Source: Octopus vulgaris
Lineage: Eukaryota
Assembly: GCA_951406725.2 (NCBI GenBank)
Contig: OX597815.1
Coordinates: 50,592,001 to 50,656,000 of the forward strand
DNA: 64,000 nt
Direction of reading: 5' to 3'
In this document: one piece after another, positions 23,261 through 41,101 of the stretch
Numbering within the stretch: the first letter of the stretch is position 1
Layout: every line of letters begins with the position of its first letter
Made by a program: the position numbers and the translations under genes
The notes under the pieces: generated by a model
What the model was told of the DNA's origin: nothing
The model's input: the letters and a program-made list of their open reading frames with translations, nothing else
Database searches by the model: none

Positions 23261-24039
23261 AGTACTCCGTCTGCTAAGTTATGCTATTCTTACTTACATA
23301 AATAGCTTTTTGAATGCCAATATCTATATATCAATGCAACCTATTCTCCTGAACACAGCTAAGAACAGTTTGGTCAGAATTCTCACCTTTATGTCATGAA
23401 GATAACCTGAAGAGAATAGAGAAAGTCTTTGGAACCACTGTTGGTTGGTTGTGCAGCATTAGAAATCTGTCATATAACTAATTTGGATGGAGTCTTTTCT
23501 GTATTTTCACACTACTATAGTTTACTTTCTGACTTTCTATTTTCAAAGATGACATCTTGGCCAATTTCAGGGTCAAATGTGATGTGTTCTTACGTAGTCT
23601 TATTCTATATATTATTCTGAAGCAATGACAGCTTTTTGGAATGTTTAATATATCTTTTACAATTTGGATCATAGCCTGAACATTTAGATATTTCATAAGT
23701 GTAAAATAATTGTGTGAATTAAATAATTAATAAAATATCTATCGTGCTTCAGATAAAAATAAAAATAAGCAATTATTTTCATATAAATTATTCACGCAAA
23801 TTTTTCTTTTCCCAACAGCATTTTTGTTAAGATAGTTTTCAACTTTATTCTTCTAATATTTTTAAAAACAATTATGGATATAAAAACATATTGCATTTTT
23901 ATATTGTGAGAAAATAAAGCAAAAGGCAGACTTTTTATATTTATAGTTTTTTTTTACTTTTATTTAATCCTCTATTGTTGTATTTTTGTGTTTGTTTGCT
24001 GTTAATGAAAGGATGTTCTTTTGTAACCACTTGAATCTT

Positions 24040-24230
24040 TCATCTTTTATCACTTATTTGTTTCAGTTATTAGACTGTGGACATGCTGGGGCACCACCTT
24101 GAAGAAATTTTAGTTAAATGAACTAATCCCAGCACCTACAATTTTTTAAAACTTGGTACTTATTCTATTGGTCTGAACCACTAAGTTAAGGGGATGTAAA
24201 CACACCGACACCAATTTTCAAGTCATGTAT
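24040..24230 (-). mobile_element. SINE family B 3' half
   Basis: Family tail ttgtttcagt...gactgtgg.catgctggggcacc. Confidence 0.7.
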
Positions 24231-24651
24231 ACATATACCCATTAAGGTCCTATGTACTAGTGTGTGTGTGTTTGAGTATGTGTGTAGGTATTTTATGCAT
24301 ATGTCTGTGTACATAACTTTCTATATATATGTTTATGCGTGGGTGTATGTATATGTGTGTAGTGGTGGGGGCAGTGGTATTTGTATATGTGTATGCTTGT
24401 AATTAAACACTCTCTAAGCAGTGAATAAACTCTAAATTATCAGTCTGAAGATGTTTTTATGCATGAAGCTTCTATCAGTCACCATTTGTAAATTTATAAA
24501 CATCTAATTATTAAAGTGGGAAAATTATCAGAAAAACCATTTCTATTTATTTTTTTCAAATATATAATGCTGTACCAAGGACTTTCTGTTTCTTATTCTA
24601 CTGTATATATATATATATATATACATACATAATACTTACATATATATATAC

Positions 24652-24716
<65 letters not shown>

Positions 24717-24740
24717 CATAATACTTACATATATATATAC

Positions 24741-24800
<60 letters not shown>

Positions 24801-24859
24801 ATATGTATATGTATATACACACATACACACACACACACACACAGAACACACGCATACAC

Positions 24860-25290
24860 ACGATGGGCTTCTTTTGGTTTAAGTCTAGCAAATCCATTCA
24901 CAAGACTTTGGTCGATTCCAAACTTGTAGAGGTTACTTGCCATAGGTGCCACACATTGGGACTGAACCCAGAACTATCTGGTTGGAAAGCAAGCTTCTTA
25001 CCACATAATTTCAGACGGTAATATATTTTCTTTGAATAGTTTTTTCATAGATTCTTTTTATCATTTATCTTTAATCTGTTTCATCTACTGACAGCAGCCA
25101 TGCAGTGGTATTCCTTTAAAGGGTTTCAGTGAATCACATTGACTCCAGTACTTATATTTTTTGAAGTCCGTTACTTATTCAATTTGTTTCTTTGCTAAAC
25201 CACTAAGTTATGGAGAGGTAAACAAACCACATTAGTTGTCAAGAAGTGTAGGGTGGGGACTAAACACAGATACACACACACGCACACACT
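24860..25290 (-). mobile_element. Two SINE family B fragments
   Basis: Head half at 24860-25010, tail half at 25060-25290. Confidence 0.65.
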
Positions 25291-25543
25291 TAAATATATA
25301 CATATATACATATATACTTGTGTATATATGTATATATATATATATATATATTATATATTATATAATTAGGGCTTAGTAAAATAAATTACTTTGCCACATA
25401 CTGAACTTTCTAGAAATATCAGCCAAAACGTTTTTAGCCATTTCCACTACTTTAAGAAAAATTCTCCCAGATAGTGTTTACTCAAAAATAACTCACGAAG
25501 ATATGGAGGTAAAACAGTAAAATATCACAAGTACAAAGATCAT

Positions 25544-25605
25544 TTGAGAACGTCACGTTTCTAGATTAGCCGAAATAAAACTCAGCATTTCCTTCGTCAG
25601 CTCAA
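25544..25605 (-). ncRNA. Type I hammerhead ribozyme motif
   Basis: TTGAG-CTGACGA-[imperfect 32-nt stem II]-GAAAC-GTGAC-GTT-CTCAA; stem I TTGAG/CTCAA, stem III ACG/CGT. Confidence 0.65.
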
Positions 25606-25911
25606 CATTTCTTAATTTTGGATTTGAAAGCACTAAAAGAATGAACATACCCATCCGGCAATGTATCACCTCAGACAAACACCCTCAAACTGCCAGTACT
25701 AGCAAATTCAAAATGTACAAGCGAAGATTCATGTTCTTTCCTCTTCCACCCACGTGAGTTATCTAGTAAACATACTATAACGGTGAGAACCGTAGTAACA
25801 GAACAGGGAGAAAGGAATTATAATATCAATAATTGAGGGTAAAATTAATTAGTTATTAATCAATTTCATCAAGTAGTGTTCAGTATGTAAAAGGACCATT
25901 TAAGGCGTATT

Positions 25912-25978
25912 ACGCTTTACGCTTTTATGCTTTTACTTGTTTCAGTCATTTGACTGTGGCCATGCTGGAGCACCTATT
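25912..25978 (-). mobile_element. 5'-truncated SINE family B tail inserted in the hammerhead element
   Basis: Family tail; TATT duplicated at 25908-25911 and 25975-25978; the uninterrupted site is visible in the inverted copy near 26455-26470. Confidence 0.85.
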
Positions 25979-26198
25979 CAAAATATTATATTATATAATT
26001 AGGGCTTAGTAAAATAAATTACTTTGCCACATACTGAACTTTCTAGAAATAGCAGCCAAAAAGTTTTTTAGGAATCTTCGCTTGTACATTTTGAATTTGC
26101 TAGTACTGGCAGTTTGAGGGTGTTTGTCTGAGGTGATATACATTGCCGGACGGGTATGTTCATTCTTTTAGTGCTTTCAAATCCAAAATTAAGAAATG

Positions 26199-26260
26199 TT
26201 GAGCTGACGAAGGAAATGCTGAGTTTTATTTCGGCTAATCTAGAAATGTGACGTTCTCAA
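26199..26260 (+). ncRNA. Inverted copy of the hammerhead motif
   Basis: Same as 25544-25605 except GAAAC changed to GAAAT. Confidence 0.6.
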
Positions 26261-26706
26261 ATGATCTTTGTACTTGTGATATTTTACTGTTTTACCTCCA
26301 TATCTTCGTGAGTTATTTTTGAGTAAACACTATCTGGGAGAACTTTTCTTAAAGTAGTGGAAATGGCTAAAAAACTTTTTGGCTGCTATTTCTAGAAAGT
26401 TCAGTATGTGGCAAAGTAATTTATTTTACTAAGCCCTAATTATATAATATAATATTTTGAATACGCCTTAAATGGTGCTTTTACATACTGAACACTACTT
26501 GGTGAAATTGATTAATAACTAATTAATTTTACCCTCAATTATTGATATATATATATATATATATAGAAAGATGAATAATCTTGTTGCAGATTAATCAAAA
26601 GTTTAACCGATACCTTGGTAGCAAAAATCACAGCAGAAGAAAGCACGGTTGGAGGTACAACCATATGGTGTTGCAACCGTGCGTTGGTGCGGATAATTGA
26701 ATTTTA

Positions 26707-26856
26707 ATATTATTAGTGAATTGAAGAAATGGAGTTGAACGAAGATTGAACAGAAATCCTTTTATTGCATTCTACACGTGTTTCGAAAGCCACGTGTAGA
26801 ATGCAATAAAAGGATTTCTGTTCAATCTTCGTTCAACTCCATTTCTTCAATTCACT

Positions 26857-26864
<8 letters not shown>
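26707..26864. repeat. Perfect 74-bp inverted repeat with 10-nt loop, ending a ~300-bp insert in (TA)n
   Basis: 26707-26780 is the exact reverse complement of 26791-26864. Confidence 0.95.
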
Positions 26865-26902
<38 letters not shown>

Positions 26903-26906
<4 letters not shown>

Positions 26907-27130
26907 TCATCATCATCACTTAATGTACATTTTCCATGCTGGCATAGGTTAGACAGCTTGATAGGAGACAACCAGCTGAAGGGTTGTTCAGGCTTCCTAT
27001 CTGTTTTGGCACGGTTTTTATGGTTGGATACCCTTCCTAATGCCAACCACTTTACATAGTGTATTGGGTGCTTTTACACAGCTCTGATATGAGTGTCTTT
27101 TACATGGCACCAGCGCTTATGAGCCTGCAA
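26903..27130 (-). mobile_element. SINE family C
   Basis: (CAT)n tail and cccttcctaatgccaaccac, i.e. GTGGTTGGCATTAGGAAGGG(C/T)ATCC, a Meta/MESC-like core. Confidence 0.8.
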
Positions 27131-27199
27131 GGTCAGCAATGCTCAGCTGGAGAGGGTTGCAGGGGAATAAGCCTGTATGTAAGGGCAATGACACTAAGC

Positions 27200-27710
27200 A
27201 CAGTAAAAGGCTTCTACACAGTCTCTGTCTACTAAATTTACTTAGAAGGCATTAGATTATGCATAGCTATAATAGAAGACACTTGCCCAACGTGCTGCAC
27301 AGTGGGAATGAACCTGAAACCATGTAGTAGCAAATCAAGCTTCTTACCCACACACCAAAGCCTTTGCTTGCATTTTATTTGAGTTCTTCTATTAACTATA
27401 AGATTTGCAAAAAATTTGATTTGCATCTGACATGTTACACTTCTAGACCTGTCAAAGAGTTGGTTGGTTTGGGAATGGTTTTCTGACAAATATTTAACAT
27501 GATCAGTGTCATCATATTTTTGAAGTTGTTCTGATGATCTTTAATTAGATGCCGGCATGGTGGTGTGGTAAGGAGTTTGCTTCCCAACCATATGGTTCCA
27601 GGTTCATTCCTACTACCTTGGGCATGTGTCTTCTACTATAATACCTTGGGTTAACTAAAGCCTGGTGAATGGATAAGGTAGACAGAAATGGAAAGAAACC
27701 TGTCACATAT
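27200..27710. mobile_element. Two divergently oriented SINE family B heads (27200-27360 minus, 27550-27710 plus)
   Basis: Family head and CORE-like segment on opposite strands. Confidence 0.7.
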
Positions 27711-27729
27711 AAATATATATAAATATATA

Positions 27730-28047
27730 TAATAAATATTAGGGAATAAATCCAAATTTACAGGGAAAAATCAGATTTAGGATTAAATCTAATTTTATAG
27801 TAAAATATTATATAATATAATTCGAGACAAAACCACTATTTTGCAAAACAAACAAGGAAAGACTTAATCAATACATAAAATTTTTAATATAAAGAAATAA
27901 ACCGCCACAACAATCGTTTCATGTCTTCAATGACATTCGTCAGGTGGATTTTCGATCTCCTAATCTATTAAAAATTTTATGTATTGATTAAGTCTTTCCT
28001 TGTTTGTTTTGCAAAATAGTGGTTTTGTCTCGAATTATATTATATAA
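27730..28047. mobile_element. Short element in (TA)n with a perfect 82-bp inverted repeat enclosing a hammerhead
   Basis: 27808-27889 is the reverse complement of 27966-28047; the left end recurs inverted at 40989-41066. Confidence 0.85.
27905..27947 (-). ncRNA. Minimal type I hammerhead ribozyme
   Basis: CCAC-CTGACGA-ATGTC-ATTGAA-GACAT-GAAAC-GATT-GTT-GTGG: all core nucleotides present, stems I and II perfect, short quasi-palindromic stem III. Confidence 0.85.
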
Positions 28048-28084
28048 ATATATATATATATACTTTATTTAAAAGCAGCAGAAA

Positions 28085-28143
28085 TTTAACAAAAGCTGTT
28101 ACTGGGAGTTTCACGTTCCTGTTCATCAGACAGTTTTGTTAAA
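28085..28143 (-). ncRNA. Type I hammerhead ribozyme with long stem I
   Basis: TTTAACAAAACTGT-CTGATGA-ACAGGAACGT-GAAACT-CCC-AGTA-ACAGCTTTTGTTAAA; lies in a ~175-bp insert (28061-28235) between (TA)n tracts. Confidence 0.8.
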
Positions 28144-28245
28144 ATAGAACTGAGATGACAATTTGATCAAAACTAGCATAAACGATACACCTTTAAAAAT
28201 GGATTTGTTTCACATTTATGTGTTTATTCCGGCATATATATATAT

Positions 28246-28530
28246 GAGTTAGACGGCTTGATAGGAGACAACCAGCTGAAGGGTTGTTCAGGCTCCATCT
28301 GTTTTGACATGGTTTTTGTGGCTGGATACCCTTCCTAATGCCAACCACTTGACAACCTGTGTTGGTGTGTTTACATCCCTGTAACTTAGCAGTTCAGTAA
28401 AACAGACCAATAGAATAAGTTACCAGGTTTAAAAAAAGTAATTACTAGGATTGACTTATTTGACTAAAAGTTCTTCAAGGCAGTGCCCCAACATGGCCAC
28501 AGTCTGAAACAAGTAAAAAGATGAAAAAGG
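28246..28530. mobile_element. Family C fragment (minus, 28246-28350) fused to a family B 3' half (plus)
   Basis: Junction at ccacttgacaac. Confidence 0.75.
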
Positions 28531-28892
28531 TAAAAAGCAATCAACTTGGCAGTTATTTTTCAATTGCAGAAGAATAAATGTTAAATTAACCCAAACCAGA
28601 TTTTTAATTTAGCACCTGTATGTAACCACTTAACCTGCTAAAAACCAACATCTAAATCCCTCTTGAATTCTGAAGGATACATTGACCAATGTACTTACTG
28701 CTTATTTAAGCCCTTTGCTCTTTATGGAGCATAGGCAATCAGCCATTTTTTTGCACTTGACAAGTCCTTTCTGCTTCCTCTCCCAGATCTTGTTGGTTTG
28801 AATTGTCATAAGTGTTTGTCTCTTATCTTCTATCTTCTGCTTGTTTCAGCCATAAGACTGTGGCCATGATAAGACATCAGCTTCAAGAATAC

Positions 28893-28921
<29 letters not shown>

Positions 28922-28926
<5 letters not shown>

Positions 28927-29325
28927 GTGCAGGTGTGGCTGTGTGGTAAGAAGTTTACTTCCAAACCACATAGTTCCAGGTTCAGTGGCACTGCGTGGCA
29001 CCTTGGGCAAGTGTCTTCTACTATAGACTCAGGCCAACCAAAGCCTTGTGAGTGGATTTGGTAGACAGAAACTGAAAGAAGCCTATCATGTATGTGTGTG
29101 TGTGTATGTTTGTATGTCTGTGCTTGTCACCCCGCCATCGCTTGACAATTGATGTTGGCGTGTTTACGTCCCCGTAACTTAGCAGTTCAGCAAAAGAGAC
29201 CAATAGAATAAGTACTAGGCTTACAAAGAATTAGTCCTGGAGGTTGATTTGTTCACCTAAAGGGAGTGCTCCAGCATGGCCACAGTCATATAACTGAAAC
29301 AAGTAAAAGATTACAACAAAAGAAT
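28922..29325 (+). mobile_element. SINE family B, full length
   Basis: tRNA-like head (TGGCTGTGTGGTAAG...GGTTCAGT), CORE-like segment, internal microsatellite, tail ...CTGAAACAAGTAAAAGA. Confidence 0.9.
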
Positions 29326-40580: not shown

Positions 40581-41061
40581 ACTACAAACACTTATGTTTT
40601 CATTTATTCTTACTTCAGGTATTACGTATTTAGAGTTAAATTATTCAATATTGTTCACCAGACTTTTATGATAGTTGAATAGGATTTAAGGGAAATTTTG
40701 CTGTCATTCCTAACCGGTCAAGCAGCCTTAAGGAAACACTTCTCTTGAATACCAGCAGTAATATCGAGGAATGCATGAGATGGAAAACTGGCAGGGTCAC
40801 CAAGTAACTTGCAAGATGAAGATACTTTGAGAGGACAGAGAGCATTGGAAGAGGTGATCTTGTGTCAGATGATGAAAGGTTTGAGTATGATGGAGAGACA
40901 GAAGCAGAAACTGGTGTTTTGCTGTAGAGGAGGTACATGATTACTTGGCCAGAGAGAAAGAGAGAGAGAGTGATATATATATATATATATAAAATTGGAT
41001 TTAATCCTAAATCTGATTTTTCCCTGTAAGTTTGGATTTATTCCCTAATATTTTATTATTA

Positions 41062-41101
<40 letters not shown>

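What the first reader, a model, noticed from the sequence alone, without database searches (positions are those of the whole stretch)
25352..26548. ~566-bp hammerhead monomer as a permuted partial tandem followed by an inverted copy
Seen: order A-Y-Z-A(partial) on the plus strand (period 633 minus a 67-bp SINE insert = 566), then an abrupt switch at 26071/26072 to the reverse complement of Z-A. There is one hammerhead per monomer (stem I TTGAG/CTCAA) and no ORF. Arms differ at only a few bases, so it is young. Inference: reverse transcription of a circular or concatemeric self-cleaved RNA followed by a template switch.
Basis: partly seen in the sequence, partly recalled or inferred. Interest (0 to 1): 0.8.

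Follow-up and report, generated by a model that had tools for sequence, protein, structure and literature searches.

The report
Non-coding Penelope-type insertion with hammerhead
This is an ordinary, already described kind of jumping-gene footprint: a short non-coding repeat carrying a self-cutting RNA motif, pasted twice head-to-head into an AT microsatellite in the pattern that Penelope-like retrotransposons are known to leave.

Summary
The anatomy is real: a 566-nt non-coding unit in partial tandem (period 633 minus a 67-nt repeat insert), joined bluntly at 26071/26072 to an inverted 5'-truncated copy, one type I hammerhead motif per arm, both outer ends in (TA)n. This is the published signature of Penelope-like elements (PLEs): partial tandem, head-to-head inverted copy, one-sided tail, minimal hammerhead. 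Contigs of four public runs show a repeat family with a fixed 3' end (summed depth falls 113-196-fold at about 25820) and 5' truncation, not freely permuted ends, and show the monomer junction without the insert. A simple fold-back template switch is excluded, since each arm holds sequence the other lacks; priming from both target strands at two start sites fits better. The two hammerheads lie on opposite strands, so this locus cannot excise a circle. Whether the source RNA was circular or a linear multimer is untested. Three more PLE-like hammerhead insertions lie within 1.7 kb to the right. Verdict: new member of a known kind (non-autonomous PLE derivative, retrozyme-like); only the ~100-nt tail is unusual.

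The parts
25331..25351 (.). (TA)n target, left flank
25352..26071 (-). Left arm, sense on minus: 97-nt 5'-truncated upstream copy, insert, Z, U, Y, hammerhead, A; 653 nt without the insert; 3' end at the proximal start site, no tail
25544..25605 (-). Type I hammerhead motif: 5-bp stem I, CUGACGA, long interrupted helix II, GAAA, short near-palindromic helix III, GUU; predicted cut between 25549 and 25548
   Evidence: no listed family variant in the 14 core positions, 7 listed places among the other 48 (tables truncated)
25731..25818 (-). U segment, present only in the left arm; rarest part of the family
25819..25907 (-). Z segment: most of the ~100-nt tail; its low-coordinate end is the family's main 3' end
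   Evidence: depth step of 113-196-fold in 4 of 4 runs
25908..25974 (-). Secondary insert: 63-nt end of an abundant dispersed repeat (SINE-like; label recalled) with a TATT duplication
   Evidence: 11 other matches in the window; absent from the right arm and from unit junctions in 4 of 4 runs
25975..26071 (-). 5'-truncated upstream copy forming the partial tandem (pseudo-LTR-like)
   Evidence: identical to the right arm over 97 of 97 nt
26071..26072 (.). Head-to-head inversion junction, blunt, no palindrome
   Evidence: not among the joints listed for the four runs
26072..26553 (+). Right arm, sense on plus: 5'-truncated Y, hammerhead, A, ~100-nt tail ending at the distal start site
26199..26260 (+). 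Second hammerhead motif; one change turns a helix III C-G pair into U-G
26545..26565 (.). (TA)n target, right flank, shared with the next palindromic insertion

Best explanation
A dead-end genomic insertion of a non-autonomous, hammerhead-bearing Penelope-like element whose repeat unit is 566 nt. Steps: (1) a tandem source array, or a circle made from one, gave a more-than-unit RNA with uncut or re-ligated hammerheads (more-than-unit length shown; linear or circular not shown); (2) a PLE RT/GIY-YIG protein supplied in trans nicked both strands of a (TA)n run (target shown; enzyme inferred from the family); (3) reverse transcription began at two fixed internal sites about 197 and 298 nt downstream of the hammerhead cut, one on each target strand, which leaves a ~100-nt tail on one arm only (ends shown; priming inferred from the Anolis PLE in vitro); (4) the two 5'-truncated cDNAs were joined head-to-head (junction shown; repair step inferred); (5) later a SINE-like fragment inserted and about 2% difference built up between the arms (shown). 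The locus has one hammerhead per strand and cannot excise a monomer.
For: Anatomy matches the PLE description: partial tandems, adjacent inverted 5'-truncated copy, tail at one end, (TA)n bias (Craig 2021 passages); head-to-head is the most frequent arrangement (Arkhipova 2013 passages); hammerhead pairs 100-700 bp apart on opposite strands, long helix II, 4-5-bp helix I, palindromic helix III (Cervera 2014; cores here are about 600 bp apart). A PLE protein cuts and extends both strands of AT-rich DNA, starts at two internal sites that delimit the tail, and uses uncleaved RNA (Frangieh 2024). Public contigs: depth gradient falling from the 3' end towards U; 113-196-fold step at the Z/U boundary in 4 of 4 runs; Z-A junction without the insert in 3 of 4 runs in the joint table and 4 of 4 in the letters-between table; Z-U bridged with 31 or more letters on both sides by 1 of 32 listed records, and with 30 letters on the Z side by 2 more. 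Non-coding: stops in all three sense frames, frameshifting indels among family variants, 19 listed substitutions in 25605-25817 spread 4/7/8 over codon phases (p=0.5), no PLE protein match. Two neighbouring unrelated palindromes also have a one-sided extension (76 and 141 nt) and hammerhead motifs or half-motifs.
Against: No autonomous partner was found, so PLE mobilisation rests on architecture, not on sequence homology. The tail (~100 nt) is longer than the published 30-40 nt. The inversion junction is not among the joints listed for the four runs. Depths are sums over overlapping short contigs, not copy numbers, and no contig spans the unit. Depth falls 3-21-fold just upstream of the hammerhead, so most hammerhead-bearing copies end or diverge there and may belong to another (possibly coding) relative. 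Helix II closes non-canonically (an A opposite an A, no G10.1-C11.1), Rfam does not score the motif and the hammerhead fold is 4.9 kcal/mol above the minimum.
Confidence: 0.82

Rival explanations
1. One reading: a hammerhead-excised, ligated ~566-nt circular RNA (non-LTR retrozyme) was the template and was copied for more than one turn. This is a sub-case of the best explanation as to the enzyme, and differs in the template.
For: Left arm is 1.15 units long and crosses an intact hammerhead; the unit is cyclically closed in other samples, piecewise; a family variant has a perfectly palindromic helix III, as for dimeric hammerheads (loose end; duplex -11.6 versus -9.2 kcal/mol); animal retrozymes are expressed as circles (Cervera 2020); a circular template was proposed for PLE tandems (Cervera 2014).
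Against: An uncleaved linear multimer of 2.3 units explains both arms equally. In the one reconstituted PLE, hammerhead cleavage was dispensable and unprocessed RNA was the main substrate; 1 of 9 Xenopus dimers cleaved in vitro. Ends are fixed, so permutation is no sign of a circle. This locus lacks two tandem hammerheads.
Confidence: 0.3
2. The unit is not an independent family: it is the pseudo-LTR and adjacent sequence of a coding PLE, and the 566-nt period comes from a deletion or truncation inherited by a few copies.
For: U and upstream Y are two to three orders of magnitude rarer than A and Z, and depth drops just upstream of the hammerhead; a sense frame ends with TGA inside hammerhead stem I; in the Anolis PLE the sequence after the hammerhead is the start of the ORF.
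Against: The Z-U junction occurs in other samples in sequence variants differing by 0 to 9 letters from the window (records 7, 8, 14, 22, 23, 32); no coding signal in U/Y. Even if true in origin, the element here is non-coding.
Confidence: 0.2
3. The inversion is an assembly or library chimera joining two unrelated copies of a common repeat.
For: Blunt junction, not listed among joints in four runs; such repeats are known to trouble assemblies.
Against: Head-to-head orientation with a one-sided tail and (TA)n at both ends is the expected biological form and recurs twice within 1.5 kb in unrelated families; the arms differ by substitutions and an insert, so they are not a read fold-back.
Confidence: 0.05

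Closest known systems
Endonuclease-bearing Penelope-like elements with minimal type I hammerheads in pseudo-LTRs (Penelope/Poseidon, Neptune, Nematis; Cervera 2014 PMC4209133; Arkhipova 2013 PMC3846280; Craig 2021 PMC8557442; Frangieh 2024 PMC11167929)
   Same: Partial tandem, head-to-head inverted 5'-truncated copy, tail on one end only, AT-rich/(TA)n target, hammerhead with long helix II, 5-bp helix I and short near-palindromic helix III, opposite-strand hammerhead pair a few hundred bp apart.
   Different: No RT/GIY-YIG ORF; tail about 100 nt rather than 30-40; helix II not closed by G10.1-C11.1; no palindrome at the inversion junction; clade of the partner unknown.
Non-LTR retrozymes of animals (Cervera 2020 PMC7229834; Li, Clavereau and Pollet 2026, 10.64898/2026.07.22.740005)
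   Same: Non-coding, low-GC unit with one type I hammerhead; unit length within the reported 51-972 bp range; proposed to be non-autonomous PLE derivatives.
   Different: This locus has no two tandem hammerheads (the preprint's criterion for an active retrozyme); unit longer than the typical ~300 bp; most family copies look like short 3' fragments; circles and cleavage not shown.
Non-autonomous Chlamys PLEs such as MRC1 (Craig 2021)
   Same: ORF-less elements that form pseudo-LTRs and head-to-tail copies.
   Different: Green algal, N-terminal EN clade, mostly without hammerheads.

Membership tests
Autonomous Penelope-like element | ORF with RT and GIY-YIG endonuclease | tested here: not met
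   No frame of 100 aa or more; stops in all sense frames; no relevant protein match
Non-autonomous PLE derivative | Partial tandem forming a pseudo-LTR | tested here: met
Non-autonomous PLE derivative | Adjacent inverted 5'-truncated copy, head-to-head | tested here: met
   junction not seen in the four runs
Non-autonomous PLE derivative | Tail on one end only (30-40 nt in print) | tested here: met
   One-sided extension present but about 100 nt; far end is the family's main end
Non-autonomous PLE derivative | Type I minimal hammerhead near the 3' end | tested here: met
   Core, stem I and helix III present, above chance; helix II closing pair atypical; no Rfam score
Non-autonomous PLE derivative | Insertion into AT-rich or (TA)n DNA | tested here: met
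Non-autonomous PLE derivative | Sequence homology to the pseudo-LTR of an autonomous PLE in the same genome | not testable with these tools
   No whole genome is held for this window; contig pieces too short
Non-LTR retrozyme | At least two consecutive units each with a complete hammerhead | tested here: not met
   One hammerhead per strand at this locus; arrays elsewhere not determined, no contig spans a unit
Non-LTR retrozyme | Non-coding, low-GC short unit with a type I hammerhead | tested here: met
   566 nt, 33% GC; no codon phase in variants
Non-LTR retrozyme | Self-cleavage and accumulation of circular monomer RNA | not testable with these tools
   Only assembled contigs were offered, which cannot show ends, strand or circles

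The most novel reading that the evidence does not exclude
The family is mobilised from a true 566-nt circular RNA, and this host's hammerhead PLE families use unusually far-apart reverse-transcription start sites (one-sided tails of 76, ~100 and 141 nt in three unrelated neighbours) marked by a CCCT(C)AA motif just inside the ends, which resembles one unit of the animal telomere template. Each inverted insertion would then record dual priming on both target strands, giving a genome-wide read-out of the unresolved PLE integration step.
Probability: 0.12. Interest if true: 0.55.

Novelty: new member of a known kind. Interest (0 to 1): 0.24.

Why it matters
Modestly. It is a clean example linking ORF-less hammerhead repeats (retrozymes) to PLE integration, a link argued in a 2026 preprint from vertebrate genomes. 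The locus anatomy rules out simple fold-back and favours two-strand priming at the two tail-delimiting sites, which fits the only in vitro PLE system I read about. A high-copy family with long tails would be convenient material for testing how PLE inversions and tails form, and whether circles are real intermediates. It is not a new kind of system.

Tried and rejected
Whole genome: none is held for this window, so copy-by-copy end mapping was not possible. Rfam: no match at gathering score in the window; 51 matches at E<=10 in 24000-29000 were chance hairpin and microsatellite hits, none a hammerhead. Vestigial PLE ORF: the 71-residue sense frame ending in stem I gave 0 Pfam families, 0 of 30 longer candidates at E<=1 (weak evidence), and 7 weak multi-stretch hits among representatives, none with an RT or GIY-YIG family; rejected. 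Pattern scans: 3 metagenome loci, all 61% GC with only the 21-nt seed matching, so chance; 0 viral loci. Expression: no RNA holder listed; one laid run is only guessed to be RNA and is used as a fourth sample, not as evidence of transcription. Depth near the predicted cut site was not consistent across runs and was not used. Earlier findings: nothing by sequence, place or relatives. Literature: five answered searches listed no paper on this family; 'Octopus, Penelope, hammerhead' listed 4 of 5 papers, none on such elements by title or abstract start. The one supplement of PMC13282606 was listed but not read, and repeat libraries such as Repbase or Dfam could not be searched, so the family may already be catalogued. 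Fold-back template switch rejected on anatomy. Free permutation rejected on the fixed end.

Full report
Setting. The window is AT-rich eukaryotic-looking DNA (26-39% GC in 2-kb bins) full of microsatellites and dispersed repeats, with no credible long ORF. The inserted repeat end looks to me like an octopus SINE; that label and the host guess are recalled and come from no call. No whole genome is held.

Observation. The direct repeat 25354-25435 / 25987-26068 has period 633. Alignment of the arms shows a 67-nt insert at 25908-25974 that the inverted arm lacks; it is 63 nt of a dispersed repeat with 11 other matches in the window plus a TATT duplication. The unit is therefore 566 nt, 33% GC. 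The inverted arm 26072-26553 is the reverse complement of Z, A and Y up to the equivalent of 25730. The junction is blunt. Arms differ in 2 of 85 (Z) and 8 of 380 (A-Y) columns; the upstream partial A equals the right arm in 97 of 97. At four of the differing places the four runs mostly carry the right arm's letter, so these are private changes of the left arm. Both outer ends lie in 21-nt (TA)n runs.

Hammerhead. Each arm has stem I (5 bp), CUGACGA, a long interrupted helix II, GAAA, a short near-palindromic helix III and GUU: 25605-25544 on minus and 26199-26260 on plus. A strict scan gave 2 motifs in the window against a mean of 0.01 in 100 local shuffles (thresholds set after seeing the motif). 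In the four runs no listed variant falls in the 14 core positions, while 7 listed places fall in the other 48; the tables were cut (9 substitution and 4 indel rows not shown), and variants are not phased. One loose-end consensus has a fully palindromic helix III. Against activity as a monomer: Rfam scores nothing, folding z is -0.37, the hammerhead fold is -8.7 versus -13.6 kcal/mol for the minimum, and helix II lacks the G10.1-C11.1 pair. Cervera and de la Pena 2014 (PMC4209133, parts 1-2 of 4 read) describe just such PLE motifs: long helix II, 4-5-bp helix I, palindromic helix III, low activity, dimer dependence, and pairs 100-700 bp apart on opposite strands.

Orientation. Taking the hammerhead strand as sense, the arms point away from each other: both 5' ends are truncated at the junction and both 3' ends face (TA)n. 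The left arm stops 197 nt after the cut site; the right arm goes on about 100 nt further. Craig 2021 (PMC8557442, passages) gives this as the typical PLE arrangement: partial tandem, adjacent inverted 5'-truncated copy, a 30-40-bp tail often on one end only. Arkhipova 2013 (PMC3846280, passages) notes head-to-head as the most frequent form.

Family evidence. Twenty of 24 listed runs from 10 studies hold part of the unit, 8 with half of the words or more. I laid 4 of them on 25354-25911 at 88% likeness. Summed contig depth is about 10^6 over A and Z in the three large runs, 10^4-10^5 over Y and the hammerhead, and 10^3 over U. It falls 113-196-fold across the Z/U boundary in 4 of 4 runs and 3-21-fold just upstream of the hammerhead. 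These are sums over overlapping short contigs and not copy numbers, but the shape is that of a fixed 3' end with 5' truncation. The Z-A junction without the insert appears in 3 of 4 runs in the joint table and in 4 of 4 in the letters-between table. Z-U is bridged with at least 31 letters on both sides by 1 of 32 listed records (5,802 not shown), by two more with 30 letters on the Z side, and touched by variants with 8-9 differences. No contig spans a unit. The inversion junction is not among the three joints listed, so it is not independently confirmed.

Coding. All three sense frames carry stops. One frame ends with TGA inside stem I, so I tested it as a vestige of a PLE C-terminus with X at its internal stop: no Pfam family, 0 of 30 longer candidates, 7 weak unrelated hits. 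Nineteen listed substitutions in that stretch fall 4/7/8 on the three phases (p=0.5) and frameshifting indels occur. The unit is non-coding now; an origin by deletion from a coding PLE is not excluded.

Mechanism. The left arm is 653 nt without the insert, more than one unit, so the template was a multimer or a circle; a linear RNA of 2.3 units would hold both arms with 188 nt unused between them. Neither arm can be a fold-back copy of the other: the right arm has Z beyond A, where the left arm runs into (TA)n, and the left arm has U, which the right lacks. Frangieh 2024 (PMC11167929, parts 1-2 of 4 read) showed that an Anolis PLE protein cuts and extends both strands of AT-rich DNA, starts at two internal sites that delimit the tail, and does not need hammerhead cleavage. 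I infer that one cDNA was primed on each target strand, at the proximal and distal sites, and that the truncated products were joined head-to-head. That step is inference. Because the hammerheads are on opposite strands, no transcript of this locus can release a monomer; a read-through RNA would instead form a long hairpin (inference from the arms).

Circle or not. Animal retrozymes do form circles (Cervera 2020, PMC7229834, passages and Discussion), and Li, Clavereau and Pollet 2026 (parts 1-3 of 5 read) argue that they are non-autonomous PLE derivatives, with units of 51-972 bp; 1 of their 9 dimers cleaved in vitro. The unit here could have a retrozyme-type source array, but the locus fails the two-tandem-hammerhead test and the tools gave only contigs. 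I put the circular template at about 0.3.

Ordinariness. To the right lie a palindrome at 26707-26864 with a hammerhead 3' half and a 141-nt one-sided extension, a palindrome at 27808-28047 with a full motif (27947-27905) and a 76-nt extension, and a fragment with a motif at 28133-28096 between (TA)n runs. The 76-nt extension recurs alone at about 40976-41071 between (TA)n runs (92 of 101 columns). An octopus repeat annotation counts 31 recently active Penelope-like families and does not mention ribozymes (PMC13282606, passages; supplement listed, not read); it bears on this window only if my host guess is right. An earlier AI note on another genome (e1-7810660) describes a similar ORF-less unit in TA microsatellites; it is a lead, not support.

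Verdict. Observation confirmed with corrections; interpretation partly supported. It works like a non-autonomous PLE; it is not an autonomous PLE, and this locus is not an active retrozyme. New member of a known kind; interest 0.24.

Noticed in passing
window 26566-26864: Palindrome (74-nt arms) with the 3' half of a hammerhead (GAAA, palindromic helix III, GUA) near its centre on the minus strand and a 141-nt extension on one side only, between (TA)n runs; shares the (TA)n run with the finding.
   Followed up: partly
window 27732-28047 and 40976-41071: Unrelated palindromic insertion (82-nt arms) with a full type I hammerhead motif at 27947-27905 (-), GUU site and a 76-nt one-sided tail; the tail recurs as a solo copy between (TA)n runs near 41000.
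   Followed up: partly
window 28063-28233: 170-nt fragment between (TA)n runs with a hammerhead-like motif at 28133-28096 (-), GUA site.
   Followed up: partly
window 25371, 25839, 26004, 26434, 26532, 27744, 41043: CCCTAA or CCCTCAA lies 10-25 nt inside both end sites of this family and the tail end of the neighbouring family; CCCTAA is one unit of the animal telomere complement (recalled).
   Followed up: partly
window 25570 and 25585: Family variants at both partners of one helix II pair would turn C-G into U-G or U-A; not phased in the tables.
   Followed up: no
window 25620-25640: Summed contig depth falls 3-21-fold just upstream of the hammerhead: a second subfamily or an autonomous partner may share only the hammerhead-A-Z part.
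   Followed up: no
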